14,283 nt of DNA from a virus. Location: UHGV virus genome UHGV-0283667; one strand, 5' to 3'. Within the stretch, counting starts at the first letter, position 1, and the number at the start of each line of letters is the position of its first letter. Under the pieces are notes generated by a model, which searched no databases, was not told where the DNA came from, and saw only the letters and a program-made list of their open reading frames with translations. Position numbers and translations under genes: made by a program. This document shows positions 1 through 14,283 of this stretch, in pieces.

Positions 1-77
1 CCTGCGCCCACGTTATAGACGAACGAGTAAAGAGCGCCGCGCGTTGTTTCCGGTATATCGACTTTGATGTACGGGTT
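1..77 (-). pseudogene. Phage endolysin (T4-lysozyme-like, GH24) fragment; reading frame runs leftward out of the window and is cut off near position 77
   Basis: Reverse-complement translation of 1-77 gives ...[26 protein letters not shown], matching the conserved core of enterobacterial prophage lysozymes. Similarity stops near 77, where the + strand Rz frame begins. Confidence 0.55.
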
Positions 78-385
78 ATTACCGTGATAACGCAATCGCC
101 TACAAAGAGCAGCGCGATAACAAGGCCAGTGAACTGGAGAAGGCGAACGCTACCATCGCTGACATGCGGAAGCGTCAACGTGATGTAGCAGAACTCGACG
201 CAAGATACACAAAGGAGCTTGCTGATGCTAACGCGACTATCGAAAGTCTCCGTGCTGATGTTTCTGCTGGGCGTAAGCGCCTGCAAGTCGCCGCCACCTG
301 TGCAAAGTCAACGACCGGTCTCACAGAAAAGCCGCCCCGAGATGGTCGCCACCATATACGGCAGTTCTCAGGCTCAACTTTCTGA
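68..385 (+). pseudogene. Rz-like inner-membrane spanin (i-spanin) fragment lacking the N-terminal transmembrane segment and the native C-terminus
   Basis: Frame opens after the TGA at 65-67. Translation [80 protein letters not shown] is lambda Rz-like (about residues 25-103). After position 316 the frame reads a non-Rz tail ([22 protein letters not shown]) to the stop at 383-385. Confidence 0.7.
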
Positions 386-398
386 AAGGCTCGGGTGA
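225..398 (+). CDS. Rz1-like outer-membrane lipoprotein spanin (o-spanin), 57 aa, in the +1 frame of Rz
   Basis: Not in the ORF track (under 60 aa). RBS AGGAG at 213-217, ATG at 225. Translation [57 protein letters not shown] has a lipoprotein signal with lipobox Cys followed by a Pro-rich stretch, as in lambda Rz1. The C-terminal part lies in the inverted segment and may not be native. Confidence 0.5.
257..316. repeat. Left arm of a 60-bp inverted repeat (58/60 identical to the reverse complement of 641-700)
   Basis: Read directly: 257-316 equals the reverse complement of 641-700 except at 266/691 and 307/650. The match does not extend at either end. Confidence 0.9.
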
Positions 399-437
399 TG
401 TAATAGGCGCGTGAGATGCGCTGTGAAATTCAGATGT

Positions 438-464
438 AAAAAAAGCCCCGCATCGCGAGGCTCA
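438..464 (-). terminator. Rho-independent terminator on the minus strand, just downstream of the minus-strand Rz fragment
   Basis: Minus-strand sequence GAGCCTCGC-GAT-GCGGGGC followed by seven U: 7-bp GC-rich stem with one G-U pair. The stem sequence is nearly identical to the + strand terminator at 1201-1226. Confidence 0.6.
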
Positions 465-493
465 TTAAATGGACTTTGTGATTTGCAAAAAAA

Positions 494-775
494 TTATTTC
501 AGGCATTGCGTCCTGATGTATTCCTGCAGGTAGTTAACCTGCGCGGTTATCTTGTCGATTCCACTTCGGAGACGGTAATAATTGAGTTCAGCATCTGCTG
601 TAAGTCCTGGGCTTTCTCCATCGCCCATGCCGCTGGCTCTGGTCGTTGATTTTGCACAGGTGGCGGCGACTTGCAGGCGCTTACGCCCAGAAGAAACATC
701 GTTTGAGGTTAAGCATCTGGCGCGCGGTAAGTGGTTGCGTTGAAATAAGAGCCAGTCCATTACAAATTTCATCAA
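494..775 (-). pseudogene. Rz (i-spanin) C-terminal portion encoded on the minus strand, fused to an unrelated 25-aa N-terminal leader
   Basis: From the arm at 700 downward the translation [66 protein letters not shown] matches the lambda Rz C-terminus, including the ...YI..QC end. The first 25 residues are not Rz-like, and the start is TTG/ATG with no clear RBS. Confidence 0.65.
641..700. repeat. Right arm of the 60-bp inverted repeat
   Basis: Reverse complement of 257-316 with two mismatches. Confidence 0.9.
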
Positions 776-870
776 GCGTTATTGGTAAGGGTGATAATTA
801 TGAGATACCTCTTCACTAAGAGTAATCTTAAGGGTAATGTGTAACCTCACTTTTTAATACGGAGGTTGTA

Positions 871-1095
871 ATGTTAGAGAATTATTTCCCTTCAGGAATA
901 GGTGCTCAGCCTGTAACTCAAGCTCAAAAACAGAGGGTTATAGCTGTTCAAGCTGCCCTTGAATTAGTTAAGGCCTCACTTTCTTCTGCAGGTGGTCAGG
1001 CTACAAGTGCAAAATTTGAACAGGAATTAAAAGCAGCTATTGGCTTAATTGAACCATTAGCCGATGCCATTCAGAAAGCAATCAGCAAAGAATAA
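871..1095 (+). CDS. Hypothetical small protein (74 aa) in an AT-rich moron-like insert between the lysis and packaging modules
   Basis: RBS GGAGG at 861-865, ATG at 871. The 780-1200 region is visibly AT-rich compared with flanking phage genes. Protein is helical-looking and hydrophilic with no signal peptide or TM segment. Followed by the terminator at 1201-1226. Confidence 0.6.
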   Translation: MLENYFPSGIGAQPVTQAQKQRVIAVQAALELVKASLSSAGGQATSAKFEQELKAAIGLIEPLADAIQKAISKE

Positions 1096-1200
1096 ATAAA
1101 CCACCTGCATTTTGTTTTATTTCCCAACTAACGGGTGTAATAATCTTAATGTTTCCCGTGGATAGATAAGACAATAAGTATTCACCTTCAAGATATAAAC

Positions 1201-1226
1201 GAGCCTCGCTAATGCGAGGCTTTTTT
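1201..1226 (+). terminator. Rho-independent terminator
   Basis: GAGCCTCGC-TAAT-GCGAGGC followed by TTTTTT: perfect 7-bp stem, 4-nt loop, T-run. Confidence 0.8.
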
Positions 1227-1261
1227 ACGCATTGTAAGCGTGCACCAAAGAGGGGATATAA

Positions 1262-1612
1262 ATGCCACCACGAACCCCAAAAGCCTGCCGTTTTCGCGGT
1301 TGCCGCAATACCACGACTGATCCGTCAGGCTATTGCGAAAGCCACAAAAGCGAGGGCTGGAAGCAATACAAGCCAGGACAATCCCGTCATCAGCGCGGTT
1401 ATGGTTCGAAGTGGGACAGTATCCGCGCGGGTGTCCTGAAGCGTGACAAAGGCCTGTGTCAGTTATGTCTGCGTGCTGGTGTGGTGCGTGAGGCGAAAAC
1501 CGTTGACCACATCATCCCTAAAGCGCATGGCGGCACTGATGCCGACTGTAATCTGCAGAGTCTGTGCTGGCCGTGTCATAAGGCGAAGACGGCCCGTGAA
1601 CGACTTAAGTGA
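1262..1612 (+). CDS. HNH endonuclease (phage packaging-associated)
   Basis: RBS GAGGGG about 6 nt upstream of ATG 1262. Cys-rich N-terminus and HNH motif ...VDHIIPKAHGG...NLQSLCWPCHKAKT. Position immediately upstream of terminase small subunit is typical of HK97-like phages. Confidence 0.9.
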   Translation: MPPRTPKACRFRGCRNTTTDPSGYCESHKSEGWKQYKPGQSRHQRGYGSKWDSIRAGVLKRDKGLCQLCLRAGVVREAKTVDHIIPKAHGGTDADCNLQSLCWPCHKAKTARERLK

Positions 1613-1638
1613 TAATAATTCTCAACTGTCTGAGGGGA

Positions 1639-1698
1639 GGGGCGGGTCAAATCTCTGTGACCTGACGTCTTCCGGACTGCCCGCCCCATCGTTTTTTT
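1639..1698. other. Candidate cos/packaging-signal region: 8-bp GC inverted repeat around a 32-bp spacer, then a T7 run
   Basis: GGGGCGGG at 1639-1646 and CCCGCCCC at 1680-1687, followed by the T-run at 1692-1698. Lies between the HNH and terminase small subunit genes, where HK97-like phages place cos. The cleavage site cannot be determined from sequence alone. Confidence 0.3.
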
Positions 1699-1737
1699 AT
1701 ACCCGCGAAAAATGAAATTTAACCAGGAGTGCCGCAT

Positions 1738-2232
1738 ATGGCTGGAACGGCGGGGCGTTCCGGGCGTCGCCCCAAGCCAACGGCGCGCAAGGCGCTGGCC
1801 GGAAACCCCGGCAAGCGAGCCCTGAATAAAGATGAACCCGTTTTTACGCCCATCAAAGGTGTTGAGCCACCGGAGTGGTTCGCTGAAGAAGAGCTCCCTC
1901 TCGCCACGATCATGTGGCAACTGACAACCAAAGAACTCTGTGGTCAGGGCCTGCTGTGCGTGACTGACCTCGCAGTGCTTGAGCGGTGGTGCGTAGCCTA
2001 TGAGTTCTGGCGACGTGCTGTGAAAAATATTGCCAGCCAGGGCAACACCATCACCGGTGCAATGGGCGGCATGGTCAAAAATCCGGAGCTGACCGCCAAA
2101 AAAGAACAGGAGTCCGAGATGAGCAGTACGGGGGCAATGCTCGGACTCGACCCCAGCAGCCGCCAGCGTCTGATTGGCCTGGCGGGGCAGAAGAAAGCCA
2201 CTAACCCGTTTCTGAAAATTATCGAATCATGA
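1738..2232 (+). CDS. Terminase small subunit (P27-family-like)
   Basis: RBS AGGAG at 1725-1729, ATG at 1738 (the ORF track begins at an upstream GTG, 1729). About 164 aa with a basic N-terminus. The stop overlaps the terminase large subunit start (ATGA at 2229-2232). Confidence 0.85.
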
Positions 2233-3110
2233 GCCGGAAATCTTACCCCAACGTAAATGCAGCAAATCAGTATGCCCGGGATGTCGTGCGCGGAAAGATT
2301 GTTGCCTGCCAGTTTGTGATTCAGGCCTGCCAGCGCCATCTTGATGACCTGATGGCGGAAAAAAGTAAGTCGTTTCGTTACCGCTTCGACAAGGACCTGG
2401 CTGAACGGGCCGCCAAATTTATTCAGCTGTTGCCGCACACCAAGGGTGAGTGGGCATTTAAACGGATGCCCATCACGCTGGAGCCGTGGCAGCTATTTGT
2501 GATCTGCTGTGCGTTTGGCTGGGTCAATAAAGGCACCCGGTTGCGCCGCTTCCGGGAGGTGTATACCGAAATTCCCCGTAAGAACGGCAAATCGGCAATC
2601 TCTGCCGGTGTTGCCCTGTATTGTTTTGCCTGTGATAACGAGTTCGGCGCGGAAGTGTATTCCGGTGCCACGACGGAGAAACAGGCATGGGAAGTCTTTC
2701 GTCCGGCACGACTGATGTGTAAACGCACACCCATGCTGACGGAAGCGTTCGGGATTGAGGTTAACGCCTCAAACATGAACCGTCCGGAGGATGGTGCGCG
2801 GTTTGAACCGCTGATCGGTAACCCCGGTGATGGTTCATCACCCCACTGTGCCGTGGTGGATGAATATCACGAGCACGCCACAGATGCGCTTTACACCACG
2901 ATGCTTACCGGGATGGGGGCGCGACGCCAGCCACTGACCTCGAACTGCTCAAGAGTCAGTGATTTATCCTCGCAGCTCTGCCAGCTCACCAGGTTGAAAT
3001 ACGCCGAACGCGCCGACACCCAGATATTGAGGTGTTTTGTTTTAAAGACGTTTGCCAGACGGGCGTTATTTTTCGCACGTTGCTGCTGGCTTAACAAAAA
3101 CTCGCGATAA
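2229..3110 (+). CDS. Terminase large subunit, N-terminal ATPase part; family similarity ends near 2938 and the rest of the ORF is out-of-sense read-through
   Basis: Walker A-like IPRKNGKS and Walker B-like AVVDEYHEH, then ...[11 protein letters not shown]. From about 2939 the + frame reads junk ([13 protein letters not shown]...) to the stop at 3108-3110. Confidence 0.8.
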
Positions 3111-3200
3111 ACCGACACACCGATATTCGGGTTAGCTTTTTCAAGTACCTGCGGGTCGGTCCAGTCGTCGCCTTCGTCAACGGTATAGATGATCCTGGCC
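2939..3200 (-). other. Internal terminase large subunit segment in inverted orientation (sense on the minus strand)
   Basis: Minus-strand translation [87 protein letters not shown] carries the terminase signature DDW.DP...KANPN...FKTKHLN.W. It lies exactly between the N- and C-terminal + strand parts, which share one reading frame. Confidence 0.75.
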
Positions 3201-3749
3201 CCGCGTTTCTGGGTACCGTATGACACGGTGTATAGCGTCGAGAAAAATGAAGATCGCCGGACAGCCGAACGCTTTCAGAAATGGGTGGAAATGGGCGTCC
3301 TGACCGTTACCGATGGTGCAGAGGTGGATTATCGCTACATCCTCGAAGAGGCCAAAGCGGCGAACAAAATCAGCCCGGTCAGCGAGTCACCCATCGACCC
3401 CTTCGGGGCGACCGGGTTGTCACATGACCTTGCTGATGAAGACCTGAACCCCGTCACCATCATTCAGAACTACACCAACATGTCCGACCCGATGAAAGAG
3501 CTGGAAGCGGCAATTGAATCGGGGCGCTTTCATCATGATGGCAATCCCATCATGACCTGGTGTATCGGCAACGTGGTCGGAAAAACCATTCCGGGTAACG
3601 ATGATGTGGTGAAACCCGTCAAAGAGCAGGCGGAAAACAAAATCGATGGTGCAGTTGCGCTGATTATGGCGGTTGGCAGAGCCATGCTGTACGAGAAAGA
3701 AGACACGCTGTCTGACCACATTGAGTCCTACGGGATCCGCTCGCTTTAA
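3189..3749 (+). CDS. Terminase large subunit, C-terminal nuclease part (family similarity from about 3201)
   Basis: ...[20 protein letters not shown]...[18 protein letters not shown]...[16 protein letters not shown] is typical of the Terminase_1 C-terminal nuclease domain. Same frame (0) as the N-terminal part. Confidence 0.8.
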
Positions 3750-3829
3750 CTGAGGTAATTATGATCATGCTGATTCTCGCGCCTCTGGTAGGCGTGCTGG
3801 GGGCGCTTTTGCTGGCGTATGGTGTTCAG

Positions 3830-3937
3830 GCTGCCGTTCAGGTGATACAGATTGCAGGGCAACATCCCGACCGACTCTGCCAGCACCCTGACGCAGGAAA
3901 AAACCGCCGTCAGTCGCATGGCCCGCTGGCTGCTGAT
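3830..3937 (-). other. Portal protein N-terminal conserved segment in inverted orientation
   Basis: Minus-strand translation ISSQRAMRLTAVFSCVRVLAESVGMLPCNLYHLNGS matches the N-terminal conserved helix of HK97-family portals, but lies on the strand opposite the portal body. Confidence 0.65.
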
Positions 3938-3953
3938 CTGCTTTCCGGTATAG

Positions 3954-4814
3954 GTGTCATATGACACTGGCTGTGTGGTACCGAAGCTTAACAGTAGCTG
4001 GGAGCCGGTCTATCAGGTCACATTCCCGGACGGCTCCACGGATGTGCTGACCCAGGAGGATATCTGGCATGTGCGCACGCTGACGCTGGACGGTCTGGTG
4101 GGACTGAATCCCATCGCCTATGCCCGCGAGGCAATATCGCTGGCAGCAGCGACTGAAGAGCACGGTGCCAGACTGTTCAGCAATGGCGCGGTGACGTCCG
4201 GTGTGTTGCGTACAGAACAGACGCTGTCGGATCAGGCTTATGAGCGCCTGAAGAAAGATTTTGAGGAGCGTCACACCGGGCTTGGCAATGCTCACCGCCC
4301 GATGATCCTTGAGATGGGGCTGGACTGGAAGTCGATGGCGCTGAACGCCGAGGACAGCCAGTTCCTGGAAACCCGCAAGTTTCAGCTTGAAGAAATCTGT
4401 CGTCTGTTCCGTGTGCCCTTGCACATGGTGCAGAACACCGATCGCGCCACCTTCAACAATATCGAAGAGCTGGGGCTGGGATTTATCAACTATTCACTGG
4501 TGCCGTATCTGACCCGTATTGAGCAGCGGATCAACACCGGACTGGTACGAAAAAGTAAGCAGGGCGTTTATTACGCCAAATTTAACGCCGGGGCGTTACT
4601 GCGCGGGGATATGAAGTCCCGTTTTGAAGCCTACGCCACCGGGATCAACTGGGGAATTTACTCTCCCAATGACTGCCGCGACCTGGAAGATATGAATCCG
4701 CGTCCCGGTGGTGATGTCTATCTCACACCGATGAACATGACCACGAAACCCTCCGATGGTAGTAAAGCCGGTAAGCAGAAGGATAACGCCAATGCAGACG
4801 AAACAACGTCTTGA
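3954..4814 (+). CDS. Portal protein (HK97 family), body and C-terminus; N-terminal region missing from this strand
   Basis: ...EPVYQVTFPDGSTDVL...LVGLNPIAYAREAISLAAATEEHGARLFSNGAVTSGVL...FLETRKFQLEEICRLFRVPLHMVQ...GGDVYLTPMNM is portal-like. The ORF opens at GTG 3954 inside a 14-bp palindrome, with a frame-0 stop at 3951-3953 immediately upstream. Confidence 0.85.
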   Translation: MSYDTGCVVPKLNSSWEPVYQVTFPDGSTDVLTQEDIWHVRTLTLDGLVGLNPIAYAREAISLAAATEEHGARLFSNGAVTSGVLRTEQTLSDQAYERLKKDFEERHTGLGNAHRPMILEMGLDWKSMALNAEDSQFLETRKFQLEEICRLFRVPLHMVQNTDRATFNNIEELGLGFINYSLVPYLTRIEQRINTGLVRKSKQGVYYAKFNAGALLRGDMKSRFEAYATGINWGIYSPNDCRDLEDMNPRPGGDVYLTPMNMTTKPSDGSKAGKQKDNANADETTS

Positions 4815-5442
4815 TGTACCGCTGAGTCTGAAATCTGTCAGTGACTCCGGTGAGTTTGAAGGGTATGGCTCCGTCTTTGGTGTAAAGGACAGCCACGATG
4901 ATGTGGTGATGTCCGGGGCATTTGCTGCTTCCCTGCGGGCGTGGAGTGACAGAAAAACGTTACCTGCGCTGCTCTGGCAGCACCGCATGGATGAACCCAT
5001 CGGTGTTTACACCGAAATGAAGGAAGACGATGTCGGGCTTTACGTCAGGGGACGGTTGCTCATTGATGATGATCCCCTCGCAAAACGCGCACATGCACAC
5101 ATGAAGGCCGGTTCGTTAACCGGCCTTTCTATTGGGTACGTCCTGAAAGACTGGGAATACGACCGGAGCAAAGAAGCCTTTCTGTTGAAAGAAATCGACC
5201 TCTGGGAAGTCAGTCTGGTGACGTTCCCGTCTAACGACGAGGCGCGGATCAGCAACGTCAAGAACGCGCTGGCCCGCGGGGAAATCCCCGAACAGAAAAA
5301 AATCGAAAGAGTCCTGCGTGATGTCGGACTCTCCCGTACCCAGGCCAAAGCATTCATGGCCGGGGGCTATGGCGCACTGTCCCTGCGCGACGCTGAGGAT
5401 GTGGGCTCTGCACTGAATGCACTTAAAAATCTGAACTTCTAA
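4792..5442 (+). CDS. Prohead maturation protease (HK97 family)
   Basis: RBS AAGGA at 4779-4783, ATG at 4792 (track start 4756 has no RBS). Overlaps the portal 3' end. HK97-protease-like sequence. Confidence 0.85.
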   Translation: MQTKQRLDVPLSLKSVSDSGEFEGYGSVFGVKDSHDDVVMSGAFAASLRAWSDRKTLPALLWQHRMDEPIGVYTEMKEDDVGLYVRGRLLIDDDPLAKRAHAHMKAGSLTGLSIGYVLKDWEYDRSKEAFLLKEIDLWEVSLVTFPSNDEARISNVKNALARGEIPEQKKIERVLRDVGLSRTQAKAFMAGGYGALSLRDAEDVGSALNALKNLNF

Positions 5443-5456
5443 TCAGGAGAAATACG

Positions 5457-6662
5457 ATGGCGGTTGATATTAAAGATGTGGAACAGGTCGCGCAGGAGCT
5501 GCAGCAGAAGTTTGACGACTTCAGGGCAAAGAACGACAAGCGCGTGGATGCGATTGAGCAGGAAAAAGGCAAACTTGCCGGGCAGGTGGAAACCCTGAAC
5601 GGGAAACTCAGCGAGCTGGAAAATCTCAAAAGCGACCTTGAAAAAGAGCTGCTTGAGCTGAAACGTCCGGCAGGTGGTGCGCAAAATAAACTGGCCACAG
5701 AGCACAAAGAGGCGTTTGTGGGCTTTCTGCGTAAAGGCCGTGAAGACGGTCTGCGCGATCTGGAGCGCAAGGCATTGCAGGTGGGCACTGATGAAGACGG
5801 TGGCTATGCCGTGCCGGAAGCACTGGATCGCAACATTCTCACCCTGCTGAAAGATGAAGTGGTGATGCGCCAGGAAGCCACGGTGATCACTGTTGGCGGT
5901 TCCGACTACAAAAAACTGGTGAATCTGGGCGGCACGGCTTCCGGATGGGTGGGCGAGACTGACGCGCGCTCCCAGACTGCCACCTCAAAACTGGGACTGA
6001 TTGAACCTTTCATGGGGGAAATCTACGGTAACCCGCAGGCCACTCAGAAAATGCTGGATGATGCCTTCTTCAACGTGGAGGCCTGGATCAACAGCGAGCT
6101 GGCGACCGAATTTGCCGAACAGGAAGAAATTGCCTTTACCACCGGTGATGGCACTAAGAAGCCAAAAGGGTTCCTGGCGTATGAATCCACCGATGAAACC
6201 GATAAGGTTCGTGCGTTCGGTAAACTTCAGCATATTGTATCCGGTGAAGCGACGACGGTGACCGCAGACGCCATTATCAAACTGATTTACACGCTGCGTA
6301 AGGCACACCGCACTGGCGCGAAGTTCATGATGAACAACAACAGCCTGTTTGCCATCCGTCTGCTGAAAGACACCGAGGGTAACTATCTGTGGCGTCCGGG
6401 GCTGGAGCTGGGGCAACCGTCCTCTCTGGCGGGTTACGGTATCGCTGAAAACGAACAGATGCCGGATATCGCCGCTGATGCGAAAGCTATTGCATTTGGT
6501 AACTTCAAACGGGGTTACACCATCGTTGACCGTATCGGTACCCGCATTCTGCGTGATCCGTACACCAATAAACCGTTTGTCGGTTTTTATACCACCAAGC
6601 GCACCGGCGGCATGCTGGTCGATTCGCAGGCCATCAAACTGCTGAAGATTGCAGCGGCGTAG
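5457..6662 (+). CDS. Major capsid protein (HK97 fold) with N-terminal coiled-coil delta/scaffold domain
   Basis: RBS AGGAG at 5443-5447. The first ~100 aa are a charged coiled coil (KLSELENLKSDLEKELLELK), followed by a capsid domain of HK97-like length (401 aa total). Confidence 0.9.
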   Translation: MAVDIKDVEQVAQELQQKFDDFRAKNDKRVDAIEQEKGKLAGQVETLNGKLSELENLKSDLEKELLELKRPAGGAQNKLATEHKEAFVGFLRKGREDGLRDLERKALQVGTDEDGGYAVPEALDRNILTLLKDEVVMRQEATVITVGGSDYKKLVNLGGTASGWVGETDARSQTATSKLGLIEPFMGEIYGNPQATQKMLDDAFFNVEAWINSELATEFAEQEEIAFTTGDGTKKPKGFLAYESTDETDKVRAFGKLQHIVSGEATTVTADAIIKLIYTLRKAHRTGAKFMMNNNSLFAIRLLKDTEGNYLWRPGLELGQPSSLAGYGIAENEQMPDIAADAKAIAFGNFKRGYTIVDRIGTRILRDPYTNKPFVGFYTTKRTGGMLVDSQAIKLLKIAAA

Positions 6663-6670
6663 TCATTCAG

Positions 6671-6688
6671 GGGCGCTGAATTGCGCCC
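6671..6688 (+). terminator. GC-rich stem-loop directly after the major capsid gene; possible partial terminator or mRNA stabiliser
   Basis: GGGCGC-TGAATT-GCGCCC, followed by TTGTTCT (weak U tract). Confidence 0.35.
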
Positions 6689-6711
6689 TTGTTCTGACAG
6701 GTGAAAGAATC

Positions 6712-6900
6712 ATGATCCTGAAACAAGATCTGAAATGGTCACCGGACGGTATGCGCGTTGAGATCATTCGTGCTGGTGAGTATGAAGATAAAGAATTACC
6801 CGAACGGGTACGTGAAATTGCCACTGCAGCAGGGATTGTTTCTGATAAGAGAACACCTGTTGCACGGGTATCTGATAAGGCTAAAAAACAGCATTCATAG
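6712..6900 (+). CDS. Hypothetical small protein (62 aa) between capsid and connector genes
   Basis: ATG at 6712 in frame with track ORF 6649..6900. Hydrophilic, no recognisable family. Lower GC than neighbours. Confidence 0.45.
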   Translation: MILKQDLKWSPDGMRVEIIRAGEYEDKELPERVREIATAAGIVSDKRTPVARVSDKAKKQHS

Positions 6901-6911
6901 AGGTAGCCCAA

Positions 6912-7217
6912 ATGATGCCTACTCTGGAAGAGCTTCGTGTTCAGTGCCGGATTGATGATGACAATGAACAGGAGAATGCACTTCTTATGATGTATCTGGC
7001 AGCAGCCAGAGAAGAGGCTGAAAAGTTTTTAAACCGGACACTTCACGATGAAACTGTTCCTGATCAGGATACGACCGGGCTTGTAATAACACCACTGATA
7101 AAGTTGCGTCTTATGCAACTGGTTGGCTACTGGTACGAGAACAGGGAAATGCAGGATGCTGTACCTGATTTTTTCTATACCGGACTCCGAATGTATCGGT
7201 TTCATCCCGGAACATAG
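6912..7217 (+). CDS. Head-tail connector protein (gp6-like)
   Basis: N-terminal pattern M.PTLEELRVQCRIDDD...ALL..YLAAAREE typical of gp6-like connector proteins. Size 101 aa and position after the capsid gene fit. Confidence 0.7.
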   Translation: MMPTLEELRVQCRIDDDNEQENALLMMYLAAAREEAEKFLNRTLHDETVPDQDTTGLVITPLIKLRLMQLVGYWYENREMQDAVPDFFYTGLRMYRFHPGT

Positions 7218-7226
7218 GAGGATTTC

Positions 7227-7565
7227 ATGCAGGCAGGAAGATTACGTGATCGCGTGGTTATTCTGAATATTACGACCTCCCGTACCCCTTCCGGTCACCC
7301 GGAGGAAACCCTGAAAGAGGGGGCTACGGTATGGGCAGAGGTTAAGGGGATCAGTGGGCGGGAACGTATATCGGGCGGTGCGGAAACCGCGCAGACAACA
7401 GTAAGAGTCTGGATGCGATTTCGGCGCGATGTGACGGCCGCCTCACGTCTGAAAGTGCTGACCGGGGCATTCAAGGGAGCCATTCTGAATATCGACGGGC
7501 CGCCGATCCCGGACGCACGATCCTCCAGGCTTGAAATACTTTGCAGCCAGAGAGGTGGAATGTGA
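7227..7565 (+). CDS. Head closure / head-tail adaptor protein
   Basis: RBS AGGAGG 7 nt upstream of ATG 7227. N-terminal MQAGRLRDRVVI motif typical of the head-tail joining family. 112 aa. Confidence 0.7.
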   Translation: MQAGRLRDRVVILNITTSRTPSGHPEETLKEGATVWAEVKGISGRERISGGAETAQTTVRVWMRFRRDVTAASRLKVLTGAFKGAILNIDGPPIPDARSSRLEILCSQRGGM

Positions 7566-8011
7566 CGGATTTTAGTCTGGATTTTTCTGGCCTGGCGGAT
7601 ATTGCAAGAGATCTGGAACTTCTCAGCAGAGCAGAGAGTAATAAGGTGCTTCGCGATGCCTCCCGTGCCGGTGCAGAGGTTATCCGGGAGGCGGTTATTG
7701 ATCATGCGCCAGAGCGAACCGGAAAACTGAAGAAAAACGTGGTTATTCTGACTCAGCGTTCACGGCGTCGTGGTGAAATTATCTCTGGTGTCCACATTCG
7801 TGGGCGGAATCTGCGAACCGGAAACAGTGATAACAGCATGAAAGCCAGCGATCCGCGAAACGCGTTTTACTGGCGTTTCGTGGAGCTGGGGACTATCAAT
7901 ATGCCTGCCCATCCGTTCATTCGCCCGGCCTTTGATACGACAGAGGAGCTGGCAGCACAGGTTGCCATGAAGCATATGAATCAGGCTATTGATGGGGTGC
8001 TGAGTAAATGA
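7562..8011 (+). CDS. Tail component, HK97 gp10-like family
   Basis: Likely GTG start at 7562 after RBS AGAGGTGG (track start is TTG 7541). Motifs ...IDHAPERTGKL... and ...FYWRFVELGT...PAHPFIRPAFD resemble the gp10 family. Confidence 0.65.
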   Translation: MTDFSLDFSGLADIARDLELLSRAESNKVLRDASRAGAEVIREAVIDHAPERTGKLKKNVVILTQRSRRRGEIISGVHIRGRNLRTGNSDNSMKASDPRNAFYWRFVELGTINMPAHPFIRPAFDTTEELAAQVAMKHMNQAIDGVLSK

Positions 8012-8352
8012 GAGAAGCCACGCTGTATGCTCTTCTGTCCCAACTGGCCGGAGGGCAGGTTTATCCTTATGTGGTCCCGCTGACGGAGGGAAAGCCTGCG
8101 GTATCTCCACCATGGCTGGTGTTTTCAGTGGTGTCTGACATCGCGTCTGATGTGCTTGATGGTCAGGCTGAATCCAGAATTACCGTGCAGATTGATATCT
8201 GGGCAACGGCTCCTGATGACGCAGATGATATCCGTGAGCAGGCGCTTGATGCGGTAAGGGAACTGGCACCATCCGTTATTTCTAAAACTCAGGGTTATGA
8301 TCCTGATTCCCGTCTGAGCAGAGCTACGCTTGAATTTCAGGTAATAGCCTGA
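8008..8352 (+). CDS. Tail completion protein (DUF3168-like)
   Basis: ATGA start/stop overlap with the upstream gene. N-terminal ...LYALL...VYPYVVP... pattern. 114 aa. Confidence 0.55.
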   Translation: MREATLYALLSQLAGGQVYPYVVPLTEGKPAVSPPWLVFSVVSDIASDVLDGQAESRITVQIDIWATAPDDADDIREQALDAVRELAPSVISKTQGYDPDSRLSRATLEFQVIA

Positions 8353-8373
8353 GGTCGTTAATGATTTTACCCA

Positions 8374-8394
8374 CCCGCCGCTGGCGGGTTTTTT
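8374..8394 (+). terminator. Intrinsic terminator-like hairpin immediately upstream of the major tail protein gene
   Basis: CCCGCC-GCT-GGCGGG followed by TTTTTT. Confidence 0.6.
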
Positions 8395-8411
8395 ATTTTC
8401 AGGAGACGAGT

Positions 8412-9116
8412 ATGTCCTCTAATTTTGAACGTTCTCAGCAGACCAAAGTCATGATCTCGTCTGCACCGGTAACGGCAGAAACGCTGAGTTCTGCCAGTTT
8501 TCTTGAACTGAGCTGTACGATTAAAGAGGTTCAGTTTACCGCCGGGCAGAAACAGGATATTGATGTCACTACGCTGTGTTCTACCGAGCAGGAGAATATC
8601 AACGGTCTTGGGGCTGCTTCAGAGATTTCCATGTCAGGAAACTTTTATCTCAACTCTGCCCAGAACGCGTTGCGTAGTGCTTATGACAACGACACCACAT
8701 ACGGTTTCAAAGTTATTTTCCCGTCAGGAAATGGATTTACTTTTATGGCAGAAGTTCGCCAGCATACCTGGTCTGTGGGAACCAACGGTGTTGTTGCTGC
8801 CACATTTTCCCTGCGCCTGAAAGGAAAGCCCTCTCTGACCACTGAACCTTTGAAACTCCTCTCTGATTTGAAAAGTACACTACAGGTTTCTGCCAGTGAA
8901 ACGCTGAATATGTCTGTTGAGGCATCAGGTGGTGTGCCTCCTTATTCATATGTCTGGAAGAAAGGCAGCTCTCCAGTTTCCGGGCAGACATCGGCAACTT
9001 TCAACAAGGCCTCCGTGACATCCGGAGATGCCGGTGCGTATACCTGTGAGGTTTCTGATTCAGCAAGCCCGATTAATAAGGTGACCTCCACTTCCTGCAC
9101 CGTAACTGTCAGTTAA
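8412..9116 (+). CDS. Major tail protein with C-terminal Ig-like domain
   Basis: RBS AGGAG 6 nt upstream of ATG 8412 (track start 8361 lies inside the terminator). The C-terminal ~85 aa look like a Big_2/Ig-like domain. Confidence 0.8.
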   Translation: MSSNFERSQQTKVMISSAPVTAETLSSASFLELSCTIKEVQFTAGQKQDIDVTTLCSTEQENINGLGAASEISMSGNFYLNSAQNALRSAYDNDTTYGFKVIFPSGNGFTFMAEVRQHTWSVGTNGVVAATFSLRLKGKPSLTTEPLKLLSDLKSTLQVSASETLNMSVEASGGVPPYSYVWKKGSSPVSGQTSATFNKASVTSGDAGAYTCEVSDSASPINKVTSTSCTVTVS

Positions 9117-9130
9117 GGAGGATGAAATCT

Positions 9131-9502
9131 ATGTCTAAAAATATCCGCAATCTGGCACTGGCGACGATGTCTGGTTTTCGCCACAAAACAGTTGATGTTC
9201 CTGAGTGGGAAGGTACAACGGTTGTATTACGGGAACCCTCTGCAGAAGCCTGGTTACGTTGGCAGGAGATCGTTAAAACCGGAGATGATGATACACCGTT
9301 ATCAGTTGCGGAGCGTGCCCGCCGAAATCTGGAAGCGGATGTTGAACTGTTCATCGATGTTCTGTGTGATACCGGGATGCAACCCGTGTTTTCAGCGGAT
9401 GATCGGGAGCAGGTACTTGCAGTATATGGTCCGGTACATGCGCGACTGCTTCGTCAGTCACTGGAACTGATCACTGATGCTGAAGTTATTAAAAAAAAGT
9501 AG
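9131..9502 (+). CDS. Tail assembly chaperone (gpG-like)
   Basis: RBS AAGGAGG at 9115-9121, ATG at 9131. Acidic ~124-aa protein directly upstream of the tape measure gene, ending in a slippery A-run. Confidence 0.75.
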   Translation: MSKNIRNLALATMSGFRHKTVDVPEWEGTTVVLREPSAEAWLRWQEIVKTGDDDTPLSVAERARRNLEADVELFIDVLCDTGMQPVFSADDREQVLAVYGPVHARLLRQSLELITDAEVIKKK

Positions 9503-9804
9503 CACTTCCGGGTATTCGTTTTCTGATGATGCTGGCGCTCAGGATGGGGCGCACATTGTCAGAGTTACGCCGGGAAATGTCTGCATCGGAAATCATGATG
9601 TGGGCAGAATTTGACAGGATCAGCCCGCTGGGTGACGAGCGGGCTGATATCCGGGCTGCCCAGATAGTTTCTGCAGTTTACGGGGCGCAGGGTGTCAAAG
9701 TTCCACTGAATGAAGCGATTCTTCAGTGGGAGGTCGTTCCTGCAAATAATATTAAAGATCCGTTCACAGCGTTTGAAAATGCATTATTTGCAGCGACACA
9801 ATGA
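9131..9804 (+). CDS. Tail assembly chaperone frameshift fusion product (gpGT-like) by -1 ribosomal frameshift at 9493-9499
   Basis: The -1 frame is open from 9493 through the stop at 9802-9804. The slippery run sits just before the G stop at 9500-9502. Confidence 0.65.
9491..9499 (+). promoter_or_regulatory. Programmed -1 frameshift slippery site (A AAA AAG)
   Basis: Heptamer A-AAA-AAG at 9493-9499 within the run AAAAAAAAG (9491-9499). Confidence 0.65.
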
Positions 9805-9814
9805 TCTTCTTACT

Positions 9815-9844
9815 TTACTGGATTATGATTCCGATTTTTATTAA
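9815..9844 (+). promoter_or_regulatory. Candidate sigma-70 promoter for the downstream moron
   Basis: TTACTG (9815-9820), 18-bp spacer, TATTAA (9839-9844), in an AT-rich intergenic stretch. Confidence 0.3.
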
Positions 9845-9862
9845 GTAAATAAGGAGATATTG

Positions 9863-10204
9863 ATGGAAGTTATTCTTATTGCGCTAGTCCTGGGGTTAAT
9901 TCCGGCTATTATCGCGCAAAGTAAAGGGCGTTCATTTTGGGGATGGTGGATATACGGAGCCTTACTCTTTATCGTTGCCTTGGTTCATTCACTTGTAATC
10001 CAAAAAGATGAAAAAACGCATGAGCAACAAATGGTGAGCAATGGCATGAAAAAATGCCCTTACTGTGCGGAGTTGATCAAAGAAGAAGCCATTAAGTGTA
10101 AGCATTGCGGTAGTGATTTAACACATAACCCTGATAGTACCGTTTCGCAAAAAACGGATGATGAATATCTTGAAGAAGCAAGGCGTAAGGCTGGGCTTCT
10201 TTAA
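9863..10204 (+). CDS. Moron: small membrane protein with two predicted TM helices and a C-terminal zinc-ribbon (CPYC...CKHC)
   Basis: RBS AAGGAG at 9851-9856, ATG at 9863. Two hydrophobic stretches, then CPYC-x13-CKHC. AT-rich codon usage unlike flanking tail genes. Own terminator downstream. Confidence 0.7.
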   Translation: MEVILIALVLGLIPAIIAQSKGRSFWGWWIYGALLFIVALVHSLVIQKDEKTHEQQMVSNGMKKCPYCAELIKEEAIKCKHCGSDLTHNPDSTVSQKTDDEYLEEARRKAGLL

Positions 10205-10209
10205 AAGCA

Positions 10210-10234
10210 AAAACCGCTTCGGCGGTTTTTTTTT
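10210..10234 (+). terminator. Rho-independent terminator (A-tract upstream, so possibly bidirectional)
   Basis: AAAACCGC-TTCG-GCGGTTTT followed by a T9 run. Confidence 0.75.
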
Positions 10235-10249
10235 GCCTGGAGAACGAGA

Positions 10250-13200
10250 ATGGCGTCACTACGCGAACTGATTATAAAAATCTCGGCAAATTCGCAGTCA
10301 TTCCAGTCAGAAATTGCGCGAGCTTCACGTATGGGACAGGAGTACTACCGTACCATGCAGAACGGAGGTCGACAGTCTGCAGCTGCATCCCGTGATATGC
10401 GGCGAGCACTGGCAGAAGTGACCGAGCAGATAAATACGGCGAAGTCTTCGGCAATGAATATGGCTGGCGCATTTGCCGGTGCTTTTGCCACTGGACATCT
10501 TATATCTCTTGCGGATGAATGGAGCTCAGTAAATGCCCGTTTGAAGCAGGCCACGCAGTCCAGCGATGATTTCCAGGCATCACAGCGCGAATTAATGGCG
10601 ATCAGCCAGAGAACGGGTACTGCTTTTGCTGATAACGCCAGTCTTTTTGCACGTTCGGCTTCTTCCATGCGGGAATATGGTTACAGGTCTGAGGAAGTAC
10701 TGAAAGTTACCGAGGCCATTTCTACAGGATTGAAATTGTCCGGAGCCAGTTCTGCGGAAGCCAGCTCGGTGATCACTCAGTTCAGCCAGGCACTGGCGCA
10801 AGGGGTTCTGCGCGGTGAAGAGTTTAATTCAGTAAATGAAAGCGGTGATCGTGTTATTCGTGCTCTGGCTGCAGGAATGGGGGTTGCCCGTAAAGATCTG
10901 AAGGCAATGGCGGATGATGGAAAGCTGACCGCCGATAAGGTTGTTCCTGCACTGATTAGCCAGCTTGGTACGCTGCGGGATGAATATGCAGCCATGCCTG
11001 ATACCGTATCATCCTCTGCAACCAAAGTTGAAAACGCCTTTATGGCCTGGGTTGGTGGTGCGAATGATGCCAGCGGTGCAACGAAAACGCTTACCGGAAT
11101 AATGAATGGTGTTGCGAATAATATTGATACGGTTGCCACGGCGGCGGGAGCTCTGGTTGCAATTGGTGTAGCCCGATATTTTGGCAATATGGCGTCTTCT
11201 GCGGGCTCTGCAACTGCCGGGTTAATCACTGTTGCCAGAAACGAAGTGGCTCTTGCTGAGGCACAGCTCAGAGGGACACAGATAGCAACAGCCAGAGCGC
11301 GGGCGGCATTGTATCGTGCGCAGCAGGCGGTTGTGGCTGCCCGTGGTACAGAAAAACAGGCTGCAGCAGAAGCGAAACTGGCAACCGCACAGGCTTCACT
11401 TACCCGTAATATTGCTGCCAGAACAGCGGCACAGGCAACGCTGAATAACGTTACGTCAGTTAGTAGTCGGTTGTTAAGCGGTGCTCTGGGGCTGGTTGGT
11501 GGTGTGCCTGGACTTGTCATGCTGGGGGCGGCGGCCTGGTACACAATGTATCAGAACCAGGAGCAGGCCAGAGAATCAGCGCGTCAGTATGCCGCAACAA
11601 TCGACGAAATTCGCCAGAAAACGTCTGCAATGTCACTTCCTGAAGCGGCAGATAATGAAGAAAAGACGCGGCAGGCTCTGGAGGAGCAGAACAGGTTAAT
11701 TGACGAGCAGAAAAGTAAGATTAAATCCTTACAGGAAAAAATTGCTGGCTATCAGTATGTCCTGGCAAACCCGGGCTGGACAACCGATAACGGTTTTATG
11801 ATTAACCACATGACGTCGGTGAAAACTGTCACAGAAGGGCTTGCAGAAGCAACAAGTCAGCTGGCTGTTGAGCAGTCCCGACTTTCCGGAATGCAGGAAA
11901 AAGCCCAGTCAATCCAGGATGTGCTTGCCGGGCTGGAAGAACGACGAGTGGTGCTGATCCGCCAACAGGCAGCGGAACAAAACAAAGCATATCAGTCATT
12001 ACTGATCATGAATGGCCAACATACCGAGTTTAATCGTCTTCTTGGGCTTGGTAATGAATTACTTCAGCAGCGACAGGGGCTGGTGAATGTACCGTTACGG
12101 CTGCCACAGGCTGCTCTGGATGATAAACAGCAGAACGCGCTGAATAACACTGAGCGAGAGCTGACCTTATCCCGTATGAAGGGGGAAGCGCGTGAGCGTA
12201 CTCGTCTGGGCTATGTAGCGGATGATCTCGGTTTTGTGGGGGATGCCTATCAGACGGCAAGGCAAACTTATATCAACAACGCGCTGGAAGCATGGCGTAA
12301 CAACCAGGCGAATAAGCCAAAGGTACGTGGTGGAAAATCGGAAGCAGAAAAAACGGAAGATGCTTATAACAGACTGATTAAACAACAAAAAGAACAAATA
12401 GCACTGGCAGGACAGAATACTGAACTGGCTAAGATGAAATACCAGGTCAGCCAGGGCGAATTATCAACCTTATCAGAAGCGCAGAAACAAACCCTTTTAC
12501 AGAATGCAGCACTCATCGACCAGAAAAAAATTCGTGAGCAAATTGCTGCTTATGAAAGCAGCCTGGCGGACAGTAACGCCAGTGTCAGGGCATCAAATGA
12601 GGCTCAGTTGTTAGGGTATGGAGACGGAACACGAATACGTGAGCGGCTTCAGGAAATGTGGAACATCCGACAGGAGTTTGAGCAGAAAAATAATGAGTTG
12701 CTGAGACAGTACCAGACCGGAGAAATCGAAGAAGCCCTGTGGAAACAGGAAAAAACGCTGAATGAAAAATATCTGGAGGAGCGTCTCAACGATCAGCAGG
12801 ATTATTATGCAAAGGCCGATGCTTTACGCAGTAACTGGAATGCTGGGCTCAAAGAGGGGCTGACGAACTGGGCAGACAGTGCCACTGATTATGCTTCACA
12901 AGCGGCAGATGCGGTCGTTTCCACTATGGATGGTCTGGTTTCAAATATTTCCGAGGCACTGGCCGGAAACGTTGTGGACTGGAGAAACTGGGGGAGTTCG
13001 ATCCTTCAGGAAGTTTCAAAAATCCTGATGAACGCGGCCATTGTTAACGGGCTGAAATCACTCTCCGGGACAATGTCGGGAGCGGGGGGATGGATTGGTA
13101 GTGTTGGCGACTGGCTTTCCGGTGCAGTAGCGAACGCAAAAGGCGGTGTTTACACATCGGCAAATCTGAGTGCTTACAGTAACACCATTGTGGATACGCC

Positions 13201-13492
13201 GACGTACTTTGCTTTTGCGAAAGGTGCCGGGCTGATGGGGGAAGCCGGACCTGAAGCTATCATGCCGCTTACGCGGGCGGCGGACGGTTCTCTTGGGGTC
13301 AGGGCTATTGGCAATGTGAATGGTGGTGGCGGATTTGTCTATTCTCCCGTGTATCACATCAATATTCAGAATAAAGGGAGCAATGGCGAGATTGATACGC
13401 AGTCAGCCAGGGGGCTGGTGGATCTGATCGACAGCAGGGTTGTGTCAATTATGCAGTCATCACGTCGGGACGGAGGATTATGCAGTGCCTGA
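10250..13492 (+). CDS. Tail tape measure protein (1080 aa)
   Basis: RBS GGAGA 6 nt upstream of ATG 10250. Long Ala/Gln-rich helical protein immediately after the G/GT chaperone genes. Confidence 0.92.
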   Translation: MASLRELIIKISANSQSFQSEIARASRMGQEYYRTMQNGGRQSAAASRDMRRALAEVTEQINTAKSSAMNMAGAFAGAFATGHLISLADEWSSVNARLKQATQSSDDFQASQRELMAISQRTGTAFADNASLFARSASSMREYGYRSEEVLKVTEAISTGLKLSGASSAEASSVITQFSQALAQGVLRGEEFNSVNESGDRVIRALAAGMGVARKDLKAMADDGKLTADKVVPALISQLGTLRDEYAAMPDTVSSSATKVENAFMAWVGGANDASGATKTLTGIMNGVANNIDTVATAAGALVAIGVARYFGNMASSAGSATAGLITVARNEVALAEAQLRGTQIATARARAALYRAQQAVVAARGTEKQAAAEAKLATAQASLTRNIAARTAAQATLNNVTSVSSRLLSGALGLVGGVPGLVMLGAAAWYTMYQNQEQARESARQYAATIDEIRQKTSAMSLPEAADNEEKTRQALEEQNRLIDEQKSKIKSLQEKIAGYQYVLANPGWTTDNGFMINHMTSVKTVTEGLAEATSQLAVEQSRLSGMQEKAQSIQDVLAGLEERRVVLIRQQAAEQNKAYQSLLIMNGQHTEFNRLLGLGNELLQQRQGLVNVPLRLPQAALDDKQQNALNNTERELTLSRMKGEARERTRLGYVADDLGFVGDAYQTARQTYINNALEAWRNNQANKPKVRGGKSEAEKTEDAYNRLIKQQKEQIALAGQNTELAKMKYQVSQGELSTLSEAQKQTLLQNAALIDQKKIREQIAAYESSLADSNASVRASNEAQLLGYGDGTRIRERLQEMWNIRQEFEQKNNELLRQYQTGEIEEALWKQEKTLNEKYLEERLNDQQDYYAKADALRSNWNAGLKEGLTNWADSATDYASQAADAVVSTMDGLVSNISEALAGNVVDWRNWGSSILQEVSKILMNAAIVNGLKSLSGTMSGAGGWIGSVGDWLSGAVANAKGGVYTSANLSAYSNTIVDTPTYFAFAKGAGLMGEAGPEAIMPLTRAADGSLGVRAIGNVNGGGGFVYSPVYHINIQNKGSNGEIDTQSARGLVDLIDSRVVSIMQSSRRDGGLCSA

Positions 13493-13826: not shown

Positions 13827-14218
13827 TGCAGGATATACAGCAGGAAACACTGAATGAGTGTACAAAATCGGAGCAATCCGCGCTGGTCGTGCTCTGGGAA
13901 GTCGATCTGACAGAGGTCGGCGGAGAGCGTTATTTTTTCTGTAATGAGCAGAACGAAAAAGGTGAGTCGGTCACCTGGCAGGGGCGACAGTATCAGGCGT
14001 ACCCTATTCAGGGAAGCGGCTTTGAGATGAACGGCAAAGGAGCCAGTGCAAGACCAACGCTGAAAGTCTCTAACCTGCACGGCATGGTCACCGGGATGGC
14101 GGAAGACCTGCAGAGTCTGGTCGGCGGAAAGGTAGTCAGGCGTAAGGTTTGCCAAAGTTGCCGACGTTATTGCGAAACTTACAGCCACTCAGGCATTTGC
14201 TGCATTTATCCTTCGTGA
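13826..14218 (+). CDS. Minor tail protein L (lambda gpL-like), N-terminal 108 aa; family similarity ends at 14149
   Basis: MQDIQQETLNECTKSEQSALVVLWEVDLTEVGGERYFFCNEQNEKGE.VTWQGRQYQ.YPIQGSGFE.NGKG...VVRRKV is nearly identical in pattern to lambda L. From 14150 the frame reads non-L sequence. Start overlaps the M stop. Confidence 0.85.
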   Translation: MQDIQQETLNECTKSEQSALVVLWEVDLTEVGGERYFFCNEQNEKGESVTWQGRQYQAYPIQGSGFEMNGKGASARPTLKVSNLHGMVTGMAEDLQSLVGGKVVRRKVCQSCRRYCETYSHSGICCIYPS

Positions 14219-14283
14219 TATCGGACGTCGGCTGGTCATATTCATCCGCGACAGCCGGACCGCTATAACCGCACTCATCACCG
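14150..14283 (-). other. Minor tail protein L C-terminal region in inverted orientation; continues beyond the window end
   Basis: Minus-strand translation GDECGYSGPAVADEYDQPTSDITKDKCSKCLSGCKFRNNVGNFG matches the Cys-rich C-terminal region of lambda L. Confidence 0.75.

What the first reader, a model, noticed from the sequence alone, without database searches (positions are those of the whole stretch)
2229..3749. Terminase large subunit split by an inverted 262-bp internal segment
The N-terminal ATPase part (2229 to about 2938) and the C-terminal nuclease part (about 3201 to 3749) are both on the + strand in the same frame. The 88 codons between them (2939-3200) read as terminase only on the minus strand (DDWTDP...KANPN...FKTKHLNIW). 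As it stands the + strand frame hits a stop at 3108 and restarts at 3189, so no functional terminase is encoded. Reverse-complementing 2939-3200 in place gives one continuous ~508-aa ORF. The junctions show no inverted repeat, only GC-rich microhomology, unlike the Rz case. I could not locate an ITTAG-type ATPase motif or the first nuclease acidic strand with confidence, so small deletions at the junctions cannot be excluded.
Basis: partly seen in the sequence, partly recalled or inferred. Interest (0 to 1): 0.8.

Follow-up and report, generated by a model that had tools for sequence, protein, structure and literature searches.

The report
Scrambled terminase gene, probably an artefact
The phage terminase gene really is interrupted by a back-to-front piece. 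It is one of several identical-looking local scrambles found only in this sequence and in none of its near-identical relatives, so it is most likely a sequencing, assembly or editing artefact, or at best random damage, and not a biological switch.

Summary

It is not a clean inversion. Compared with the intact 577-aa gene of E. coli 1517k, which is 100% identical otherwise, 108 bp and 105 bp flanking the inverted piece are missing. These carry the ATPase motif 'WAITTAG' and the first nuclease acidic strand 'ILAFDLA'. Re-inverting gives an open 506-aa frame but not a working terminase.

The same kind of scar recurs at 3825-3966 (ymfR/portal), at 14151-14283 (tail protein L) and three times within 1-700 (lysis genes), giving eight junctions in all:
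- They have 0-1 bp microhomology and no inverted repeats.
- Each joins points 304-366 bp apart.
- Both window ends lie in flipped pieces.
- One flipped piece switches between two paralogous prophage templates.

Fifteen related loci compared at these breakpoints are collinear. Neither the terL left-junction 34-mer nor a 38-mer carrying the window's only private substitution occurs in the scanned public collections.

Best reading: a non-biological chimera from template, assembly or editing. A one-off in-vivo complex rearrangement is the main rival. A programmed inverton is excluded. Low interest.

The parts
2229..2937 (+). terL 5' fragment: codons 1-236 plus 1 nt. It holds the ATPase domain up to just before motif III.
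   Evidence: 100% identical to L001 12230-12938. Pfam TerL_ATPase profile 1-159 of 178.
2938..3195 (-). Inverted central terL fragment (aa 273-358 of the intact protein), the start of the nuclease domain.
   Evidence: Reverse complement of L001 13047-13304 at 100% identity. Pfam TerL_nuclease profile 11-83, E = 5.6e-6.
3196..3749 (+). terL 3' fragment (aa 394-577 plus stop), in the same frame as the 5' fragment.
   Evidence: 100% identical to L001 13410-13963. Pfam TerL_nuclease profile 139-284.
2937..2938 (.). Left junction. It joins L001 12938 to 13304 (366 bp apart) with 0 bp microhomology. 108 bp (aa 237-272, 'MWAITTAGYN...') are lost.
   Evidence: The HK97 TerL 6Z6D alignment places 'LLIVISTQAAN' opposite this stretch.
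3195..3196 (.). Right junction. It joins L001 13047 to 13410 (363 bp apart) with 0 bp microhomology. 105 bp (aa 359-393, 'GQPCILAFDLARKLD...') are lost.
3825..3966 (-). Second scar of the same type: an inverted 142-bp piece of the portal gene 5' region. 197 bp (ymfR 3' end and portal start) and 173 bp are lost on its two sides.
   Evidence: Reverse complement of L001 14236-14377, flanked by + 14038 and + 14551. 0 bp microhomology at both junctions.
14151..14283 (-). Third scar: an inverted piece of the minor tail protein L gene that runs off the end of the window.
   Evidence: Reverse complement of L001 24943-25075 following + 24734, a 341-bp jump.
1..700 (.). Lysis-gene region made of three pieces of alternating orientation: 1-78 (-), 79-318 (+) and 319-700 (-). 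Piece 319-700 switches from SfV-like to DLP12-like template sequence within 553-639.
   Evidence: Junctions 318|319 and 700|701 are absent from 5,426 complete E. coli genomes.
14130..14130 (+). The only substitution private to the window in the 12.4 kb compared base by base (A here, C in the seven relatives compared). It lies 20 bp before junction 14150|14151.

Best explanation
The terL interruption is a private 'deletion-inversion-deletion' scar. In it, 471 bp of an otherwise intact 1,734-bp HK97-type large-terminase gene have been replaced by the reverse complement of their central 258 bp.

It is not an element of the terminase gene. It is one instance of a process that flipped strand at eight points in this 14.3-kb sequence, each time joining two positions about 330 bp apart (304-366 bp) without any homology. 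That process also left both ends of the window inside flipped pieces and, in one flipped piece, crossed between two paralogous prophage sequences.

I consider it most likely that this process acted outside the cell. Candidates are a chimeric template, a mis-joined or mis-oriented assembly or scaffold, or editing of the sequence. On that reading the real phage carries the ordinary collinear 577-aa terL.

Shown: the anatomy, the losses, the recurrence, and the absence from relatives and public collections.

Inferred: the non-biological origin.

Whatever the origin, the sequence as written encodes no functional terminase. ATPase motif III and the first catalytic acidic strand of the nuclease are gone, and portal, tail protein L and Rz are broken in the same way.
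For: (1) The window differs from E. coli 1517k only by these rearrangements plus 3 substitutions in 10,184 bp, and 701-3966 is 100% identical piecewise.

(2) Fifteen related public loci compared at the breakpoints (L001-L003, L005-L016) carry the collinear arrangement. The called or annotated TerL is 577 aa in thirteen of them (498 aa from a later start in L014 and L016), and the portal is 413 aa in the thirteen loci that contain the whole gene. Only one substitution (14130) is private to the window, and it sits 20 bp from a junction. Eight private junctions against one private point change is not what divergence in nature looks like.

(3) No complete E. coli genome (5,426) or phage record covers the terL-portal stretch (2000-4000) or the two lysis-region junctions tested in one collinear piece. 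The terL left-junction 34-mer and the 38-mer carrying the private substitution are absent from IMG/VR, GTDB genomes and JGI metagenomes. The truncated ORF products are not on record.

(4) All eight junctions are blunt or nearly so: 0 bp in seven and 1 bp in one. There are no inverted repeats at the breakpoints.

(5) The jump size is uniform (mean 332 bp, SD 24), although the inverted pieces range from 142 to 382 bp and the flanks range from a loss of up to 197 bp to a 60-bp inverted duplication. This points to one process with a characteristic length.

(6) Flipped pieces make up 7% of the window, yet both window ends fall inside them.

(7) Piece 319-700 carries SfV-type diagnostic bases at 640, 650 and 691 and DLP12-type bases at 521, 542 and 552. 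That is a switch between paralogous templates, as in chimeric assembly or amplification.
Against: - I have no reads, depth or metadata, so a technical origin is inferred, not shown.
- No specific artefact mechanism fits everything. MDA mispriming predicts at least 2 bp of complementarity at 93.5% of proximal inverted junctions (PMC1855051), against 0 of 8 here. De Bruijn graph misassembly needs k-1 overlap at joins. Removal of scaffold Ns is untestable.
- The test of whether the lost flanks are repeats shared with other prophage types was negative.
- The sequence is otherwise of very high quality, with no indels in 13 kb.
Confidence: 0.7

Rival explanations
1. A real, one-off in-vivo complex rearrangement in a decaying prophage. 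This would be a burst of local events by serial replication template switching (FoSTeS/MMBIR-like) or by breakage and rejoining among several phage genome copies. It would have scrambled lysis, terminase, portal and tail genes at once and killed the prophage.
For: - The delINVdel and dupINV architecture is a recognised product of replication-based mechanisms in other organisms (PMC5338099 and PMC6286558, listed).
- The pieces stay local and the large blocks keep their order and orientation.
- A private substitution lies 20 bp from one breakpoint.
- The template switch between two prophage paralogues is possible in a cell carrying both prophages.
Against: - Seven of eight junctions have 0 bp microhomology, whereas priming-based switching needs some.
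- E. coli has no efficient blunt end-joining (from my own knowledge).
- Four events against one private substitution requires a single catastrophe.
- The 60-bp inverted duplication with two allelic differences cannot come from breaking and rejoining one molecule.
- No related locus or complete genome shows any of the junctions.
Confidence: 0.2
2. Specifically, phi29 multiple-displacement-amplification chimeras (inverted joins with an intervening deletion) that became fixed in a low-input or single-cell assembly or in a long read.
For: In that study, 85% of MDA chimeras were inverted joins with an intervening deletion, they were mostly intramolecular, and their number fell off with the distance between the joined segments (PMC1855051). 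The alternation of orientation in the window resembles multi-segment MDA chimeras.
Against: 93.5% of proximal inverted MDA junctions show at least 2 bp of complementarity, against 0 of 8 here. MDA junction distances are broad, not 304-366 bp.
Confidence: 0.07
3. A programmed intragenic inverton or phase-variable terminase, in which a recombinase flips the segment to switch terL on and off.
For: Only the bare fact that an internal segment is inverted and that re-inversion is in frame.
Against: - There are no flanking inverted repeats.
- The event is not conservative: 213 bp including two catalytic motifs are lost.
- The 'on' orientation would still be dead.
- None of the 15 relatives compared, and no complete genome covering the region, has the flipped state.
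- No invertase is annotated in the corresponding stretch of L001.
- The same scars hit unrelated genes.
Confidence: 0.01

Closest known systems
delINVdel complex structural variants (human cxSV classification; replication-based FoSTeS/MMBIR models)
   Same: The architecture is the same: an inverted middle piece with a deletion on each side, two breakpoint junctions, all local.
   Different: Those junctions typically show microhomology or templated insertions, whereas these are blunt. Here at least four events cluster in 14 kb with a uniform stride of about 330 bp, and the class is not an established one in E. coli prophages.
phi29 MDA inverted chimeras (Lasken and Stockwell 2007, PMC1855051)
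   Same: Inverted joins with an intervening deletion between nearby positions of the same molecule.
   Different: The expected 2-21 nt of junction complementarity is absent, and the distances are narrow rather than broadly distributed.
Intragenic invertons and invertase-driven segments (Pin/Gin/Hin systems, shufflons; 10.1101/2023.03.11.532203)
   Same: A segment inside a coding sequence lies in the opposite orientation.
   Different: There are no inverted repeats and no recombinase, sequence is lost at both ends, there is no alternative state in relatives, and the gene is destroyed rather than recoded.
HK97-type large terminase (TerL_ATPase + TerL_nuclease; HK97 TerL structure 6Z6D) in the HNH - TerS(P27) - TerL - portal packaging module of SfV/SfII/SfIV-like phages
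   Same: The three pieces are 100% identical in DNA to such a gene, and the neighbouring HNH and small-terminase genes are intact.
   Different: The gene is in three pieces. It lacks aa 237-272 and 359-393 and cannot be translated as one protein.

Membership tests
HK97-type large terminase (functional gene) | A single open reading frame spanning the ATPase and nuclease domains | tested here: not met
   The + frame stops at 3108-3110, and the middle 258 bp read only on the minus strand.
HK97-type large terminase (functional gene) | N-terminal ATPase domain, profile start through position 159 of 178 | tested here: met
   Pfam TerL_ATPase E = 1.4e-20, profile 1-159 of 178, in 2229-3107.
HK97-type large terminase (functional gene) | ATPase motif III / C-motif ('ITTAG', HK97 'ISTQ') | tested here: not met
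   It lies in the lost 108 bp (aa 237-272 'MWAITTAGYN'). The alignment to 6Z6D is, and one search shows these bases are absent from the whole window.
HK97-type large terminase (functional gene) | First acidic strand of the RNase-H-like nuclease ('AFDLA', HK97 'GLDLS') | tested here: not met
   It lies in the lost 105 bp (aa 359-393). Pfam nuclease profile positions 84-138 are unmatched.
Programmed invertible segment / intragenic inverton | Inverted repeats (recombination sites) flanking the invertible DNA | tested here: not met
   There are no inverted repeats at breakpoints 12938/13304 or 13047/13410 of the intact gene, or at 2937/3196 of the window. Only chance 9-21-nt pairs occur elsewhere.
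Programmed invertible segment / intragenic inverton | Conservative exchange with no sequence gained or lost | tested here: not met
   108 and 105 bp are lost.
Programmed invertible segment / intragenic inverton | Both orientations found among close relatives or in populations | tested here: not met
   All 15 related loci compared are collinear. No complete E. coli genome or phage record covers the terL-portal region in one collinear piece. Population reads are not available.
Programmed invertible segment / intragenic inverton | A cognate invertase nearby | tested here: not met
   The annotation of the collinear region of L001 (lysis genes to tail genes) lists no recombinase. The rest of the prophage lies outside the window.
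Replication-based delINVdel (FoSTeS/MMBIR) | An inverted segment with flanking deletions and two junctions | tested here: met
Replication-based delINVdel (FoSTeS/MMBIR) | Microhomology or templated insertion at the junctions | tested here: not met
   0 bp at all five junctions scored against L001, 0-1 bp at the three lysis-region junctions, and no inserted bases.
MDA inverted chimera | An inverted join with an intervening deletion, proximal segments | tested here: met
   The definition is from PMC1855051.
MDA inverted chimera | At least 2 nt of complementarity at the junction (93.5% of proximal inverted chimeras) | tested here: not met
   0 of 8 junctions.
MDA inverted chimera | DNA was amplified with phi29 polymerase | not testable with these tools
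   The source of the window is unknown.

The most novel reading that the evidence does not exclude
The scars are real and arose in vivo. On this reading a single catastrophic, homology-independent process repeatedly flipped strand with a fixed stride of about 330 bp across a prophage's late operon, drawing on two resident prophages as templates. That would be a bacterial counterpart of chromoanasynthesis, or the footprint of an unknown nuclease/ligase or replisome activity that scrambles prophage DNA.
Probability: 0.07. Interest if true: 0.7.

Novelty: not a real feature. Interest (0 to 1): 0.1.

Why it matters
If the reading is right, the value is negative but useful. The 'split terminase' should not be reported as a gene architecture or a switch, and the whole window should be treated as structurally unreliable. 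At least four genes or gene cassettes are scrambled in the same way.

The recurring signature is a practical flag for this kind of corruption in other windows: blunt joins, a stride of about 330 bp, short flipped pieces, and flipped contig ends.

Only if reads proved the arrangement real would it matter biologically. It would then be evidence for a clustered, homology-independent rearrangement process in E. coli.

Tried and rejected
- **Simple inversion.** Rejected: 108 and 105 bp are missing.
- **Inversion through inverted repeats or a site-specific recombinase.** Rejected: no repeats at the breakpoints and the exchange is not conservative.
Rejected: 0 bp.
- **A common restriction or transposase motif at the breakpoints.** None seen on inspecting the junction contexts.
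- **De Bruijn collapse of stretches shared with other prophage types as the cause of the lost flanks.** Mismatch maps against four other terL types show that x1 contains several differences. Only x2 roughly coincides with a 104-bp identical stretch of one type, so the idea is not supported.
- **Lost segments moved elsewhere in the window.** None found.
- **Finding the source record.**
  - The terL left-junction 34-mer and a 38-mer carrying the private substitution were searched in IMG/VR, GTDB genomes and JGI metagenomes, with 0 hits.
  - The three truncated ORF products were looked up, and none is on record.
  - The E. coli complete-genome and phage collections hold no record covering the rearranged regions in one collinear piece.
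- **SV simulation on a single parental locus.** This does not explain the lysis-region event, because the two 60-bp arms carry different prophage alleles.
- **MDA mispriming.** Disfavoured by the junction statistics.

Full report
**What is in the window.** The window is the late region of an E. coli SfV/SfII/SfIV-like (HK97-type) prophage. In order it carries lysis genes, an HNH endonuclease, a P27-family small terminase, the large terminase, ymfR, portal, protease, capsid, head-tail genes, the tape measure protein and minor tail genes. This comes from annotation of the collinear region of E. coli 1517k (locus L001) and from phage hits.

**The observation.**
- The + strand ORF 2229..3110 (293 aa) ends at a stop at 3108-3110. 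A second + ORF starts at ATG 3189 and ends at 3749. A minus-strand ORF 2891..3226 reads '[15 protein letters not shown]...FKTKHLNIW'.
- Pfam assigns 2229-3107(+) to TerL_ATPase (profile 1-159 of 178), 2938-3193(-) to TerL_nuclease (profile 11-83, E = 5.6e-6) and 3189-3746(+) to TerL_nuclease (profile 139-284).

**Exact anatomy.** blastn against L001 gives four consecutive blocks:

| Window | Matches in L001 | Identity |
|---|---|---|
| 701-2937 | + 10702-12938 | 100% |
| 2938-3195 | reverse complement of 13047-13304 | 100% |
| 3196-3824 | + 13410-14038 | 100% |

- The intact terL is L001 12230-13963 and encodes 577 aa.
- In the window, 471 bp of it (12939-13409) have been replaced by the reverse complement of their central 258 bp. 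The 108 bp on the left and the 105 bp on the right are gone from the entire window.
- The lost left flank encodes aa 237-272, 'MWAITTAGYN...'. In the alignment to the HK97 TerL structure 6Z6D it lies opposite 'LLIVISTQAAN', which is ATPase motif III.
- The lost right flank encodes aa 359-393, 'GQPCILAFDLARKLD...'. It lies opposite HK97 'YAGLDLSARND', the first acidic strand of the nuclease.
- All three lengths are multiples of three, so re-inversion gives an open 506-aa frame. It would still lack both motifs and would not be a functional terminase.

**Junctions.** Both junctions have 0 bp of microhomology. No inverted repeats sit at the breakpoints in the intact gene or in the window. The 'GC-rich microhomology' is not supported.

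**The event is not specific to terL.** The same comparison shows two more scars:
- 3825-3966 is the reverse complement of L001 14236-14377, with 197 and 173 bp lost. This destroys the ymfR 3' end and the portal 5' end.
- 14151-14283 is the reverse complement of L001 24943-25075, directly after + 24734. This breaks the minor tail protein L gene and runs off the window end.

The first 700 bp consist of three pieces of alternating orientation from a DLP12-like lysis cassette (locus L004):
- 1-78
- 79-318
- 319-700

This arrangement creates the 60-bp inverted repeat at 257-316 / 641-700. Within 319-700 the diagnostic bases switch from SfV-type (640, 650, 691) to DLP12-type (521, 542, 552). Two paralogous prophage sequences therefore served as template.

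**Properties shared by all eight junctions.**
- Seven have 0 bp of microhomology and one has 1 bp.
- The distance between the two joined positions is 366, 363, 339, 315, 341, 310, 320 and 304 bp, with mean 332 and SD 24.
- Meanwhile the inverted pieces range from 142 to 382 bp, and the flanks range from a loss of up to 197 bp to a 60-bp inverted duplication.
- Only short pieces (at most 382 bp) are in the minus orientation. They make up 7% of the window, yet both window ends lie in them.

**Comparison with relatives.**
- The collinear 10,184-bp block differs from 1517k at 3 positions. 1517k is the only complete genome at 99% identity or above.
- Exact look-ups of the tape measure and capsid proteins brought in 12 more public loci, L005-L016. 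With L001-L003, that gives 15 related loci compared at the breakpoints, and every one is collinear there.
- The called or annotated TerL is 577 aa in thirteen of them (498 aa from a later start in L014 and L016). The portal is 413 aa in the thirteen loci that contain the whole gene.
- In the 12.4 kb compared base by base (701-2937 and 3967-14150) against the closest relatives, only one substitution is private to the window. It is 14130 A (C in the seven relatives compared), 20 bp before junction 14150|14151.
- None of 5,426 complete E. coli genomes and no phage record covers the terL-portal stretch (window 2000-4000), or the 140-bp stretches spanning junctions 318|319 and 700|701, in one collinear piece.
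- The terL left-junction 34-mer and a 38-mer carrying the private substitution are absent from IMG/VR, the GTDB genomes and the JGI metagenomes.
- The truncated ORF products are not on record.

**Interpretation.**

*A programmed invertible segment is excluded.* There are no repeats, the exchange is not conservative, catalytic motifs are lost, no alternative state exists among relatives, and the same scars hit unrelated genes.

*A natural evolutionary origin is unlikely.* Eight private breakpoints accompany a single private point change.

*A single in-vivo catastrophe remains possible.* Replication-based template switching does produce delINVdel and dupINV architectures in other organisms (PMC5338099 and PMC6286558). 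However, it should leave microhomology. Breaking and rejoining one molecule cannot produce the two-allele inverted duplication in the lysis region.

*MDA chimeras have the right geometry but the wrong junctions.* They are inverted joins with an intervening deletion. However, 93.5% of proximal inverted MDA junctions carry at least 2 nt of complementarity (PMC1855051), against 0 of 8 here.

*What remains is a join without annealing.* A characteristic length, blunt joins, short mis-oriented pieces, flipped sequence ends and crossing between paralogous repeats all fit this. Candidates are ligation or assembly chimeras, mis-oriented short contigs with gaps closed up, or editing of the sequence. I cannot tell which, and the 304-366-bp stride remains unexplained.

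A test of one concrete assembly idea was negative. I asked whether the lost flanks are stretches identical between co-resident prophage types.

**Verdict.**
- The best explanation is a non-biological chimera (0.7). A real one-off complex rearrangement is the main rival (0.2).
- Interest is low. The decisive test is read-level or PCR validation across 2900-3250 and across the other junctions.

Noticed in passing
window 3825-3966 (with junctions 3824|3825 and 3966|3967): A second deletion-inversion-deletion scar. A 142-bp piece of the portal gene 5' region is inverted, and 197 bp (ymfR 3' end, portal start codon) and 173 bp are lost. The portal survives only as a 286-aa C-terminal ORF at 3954-4814.
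   Followed up: yes
window 14151-14283: The last 133 bp are the reverse complement of a stretch 341 bp further on in the minor tail protein L gene. The window therefore ends inside a flipped piece.
   Followed up: yes
window 1-700: The lysis region is built from three pieces of alternating orientation from a DLP12-like rrrD/Rz cassette. This gives a 60-bp inverted repeat (257-316 / 641-700, 2 mismatches). Its junctions are also absent from all complete E. coli genomes.
   Followed up: partly
window 553-639: Inside the flipped piece 319-700 the sequence changes from SfV-like prophage alleles (640, 650, 691) to DLP12-like alleles (521, 542, 552). This is a crossover between two paralogous prophage Rz genes.
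   Followed up: partly
window 14130: The only substitution private to the window in the 12.4 kb compared base by base (A here, C in the seven relatives compared). It lies 20 bp upstream of a breakpoint.
   Followed up: partly
all eight junctions (78|79, 318|319, 700|701, 2937|2938, 3195|3196, 3824|3825, 3966|3967, 14150|14151): The two positions joined at each junction are always 304-366 bp apart in the collinear sequence (mean 332, SD 24), although piece lengths and flank losses vary widely. This characteristic length is unexplained.
   Followed up: partly
window 1262-2232: The HNH endonuclease (1262-1612) and the P27-family small terminase (1729/1739-2232) directly upstream of terL are intact and 100% identical to relatives. 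This is the usual HNH-TerS-TerL packaging module of HK97-like cos phages.
   Followed up: no
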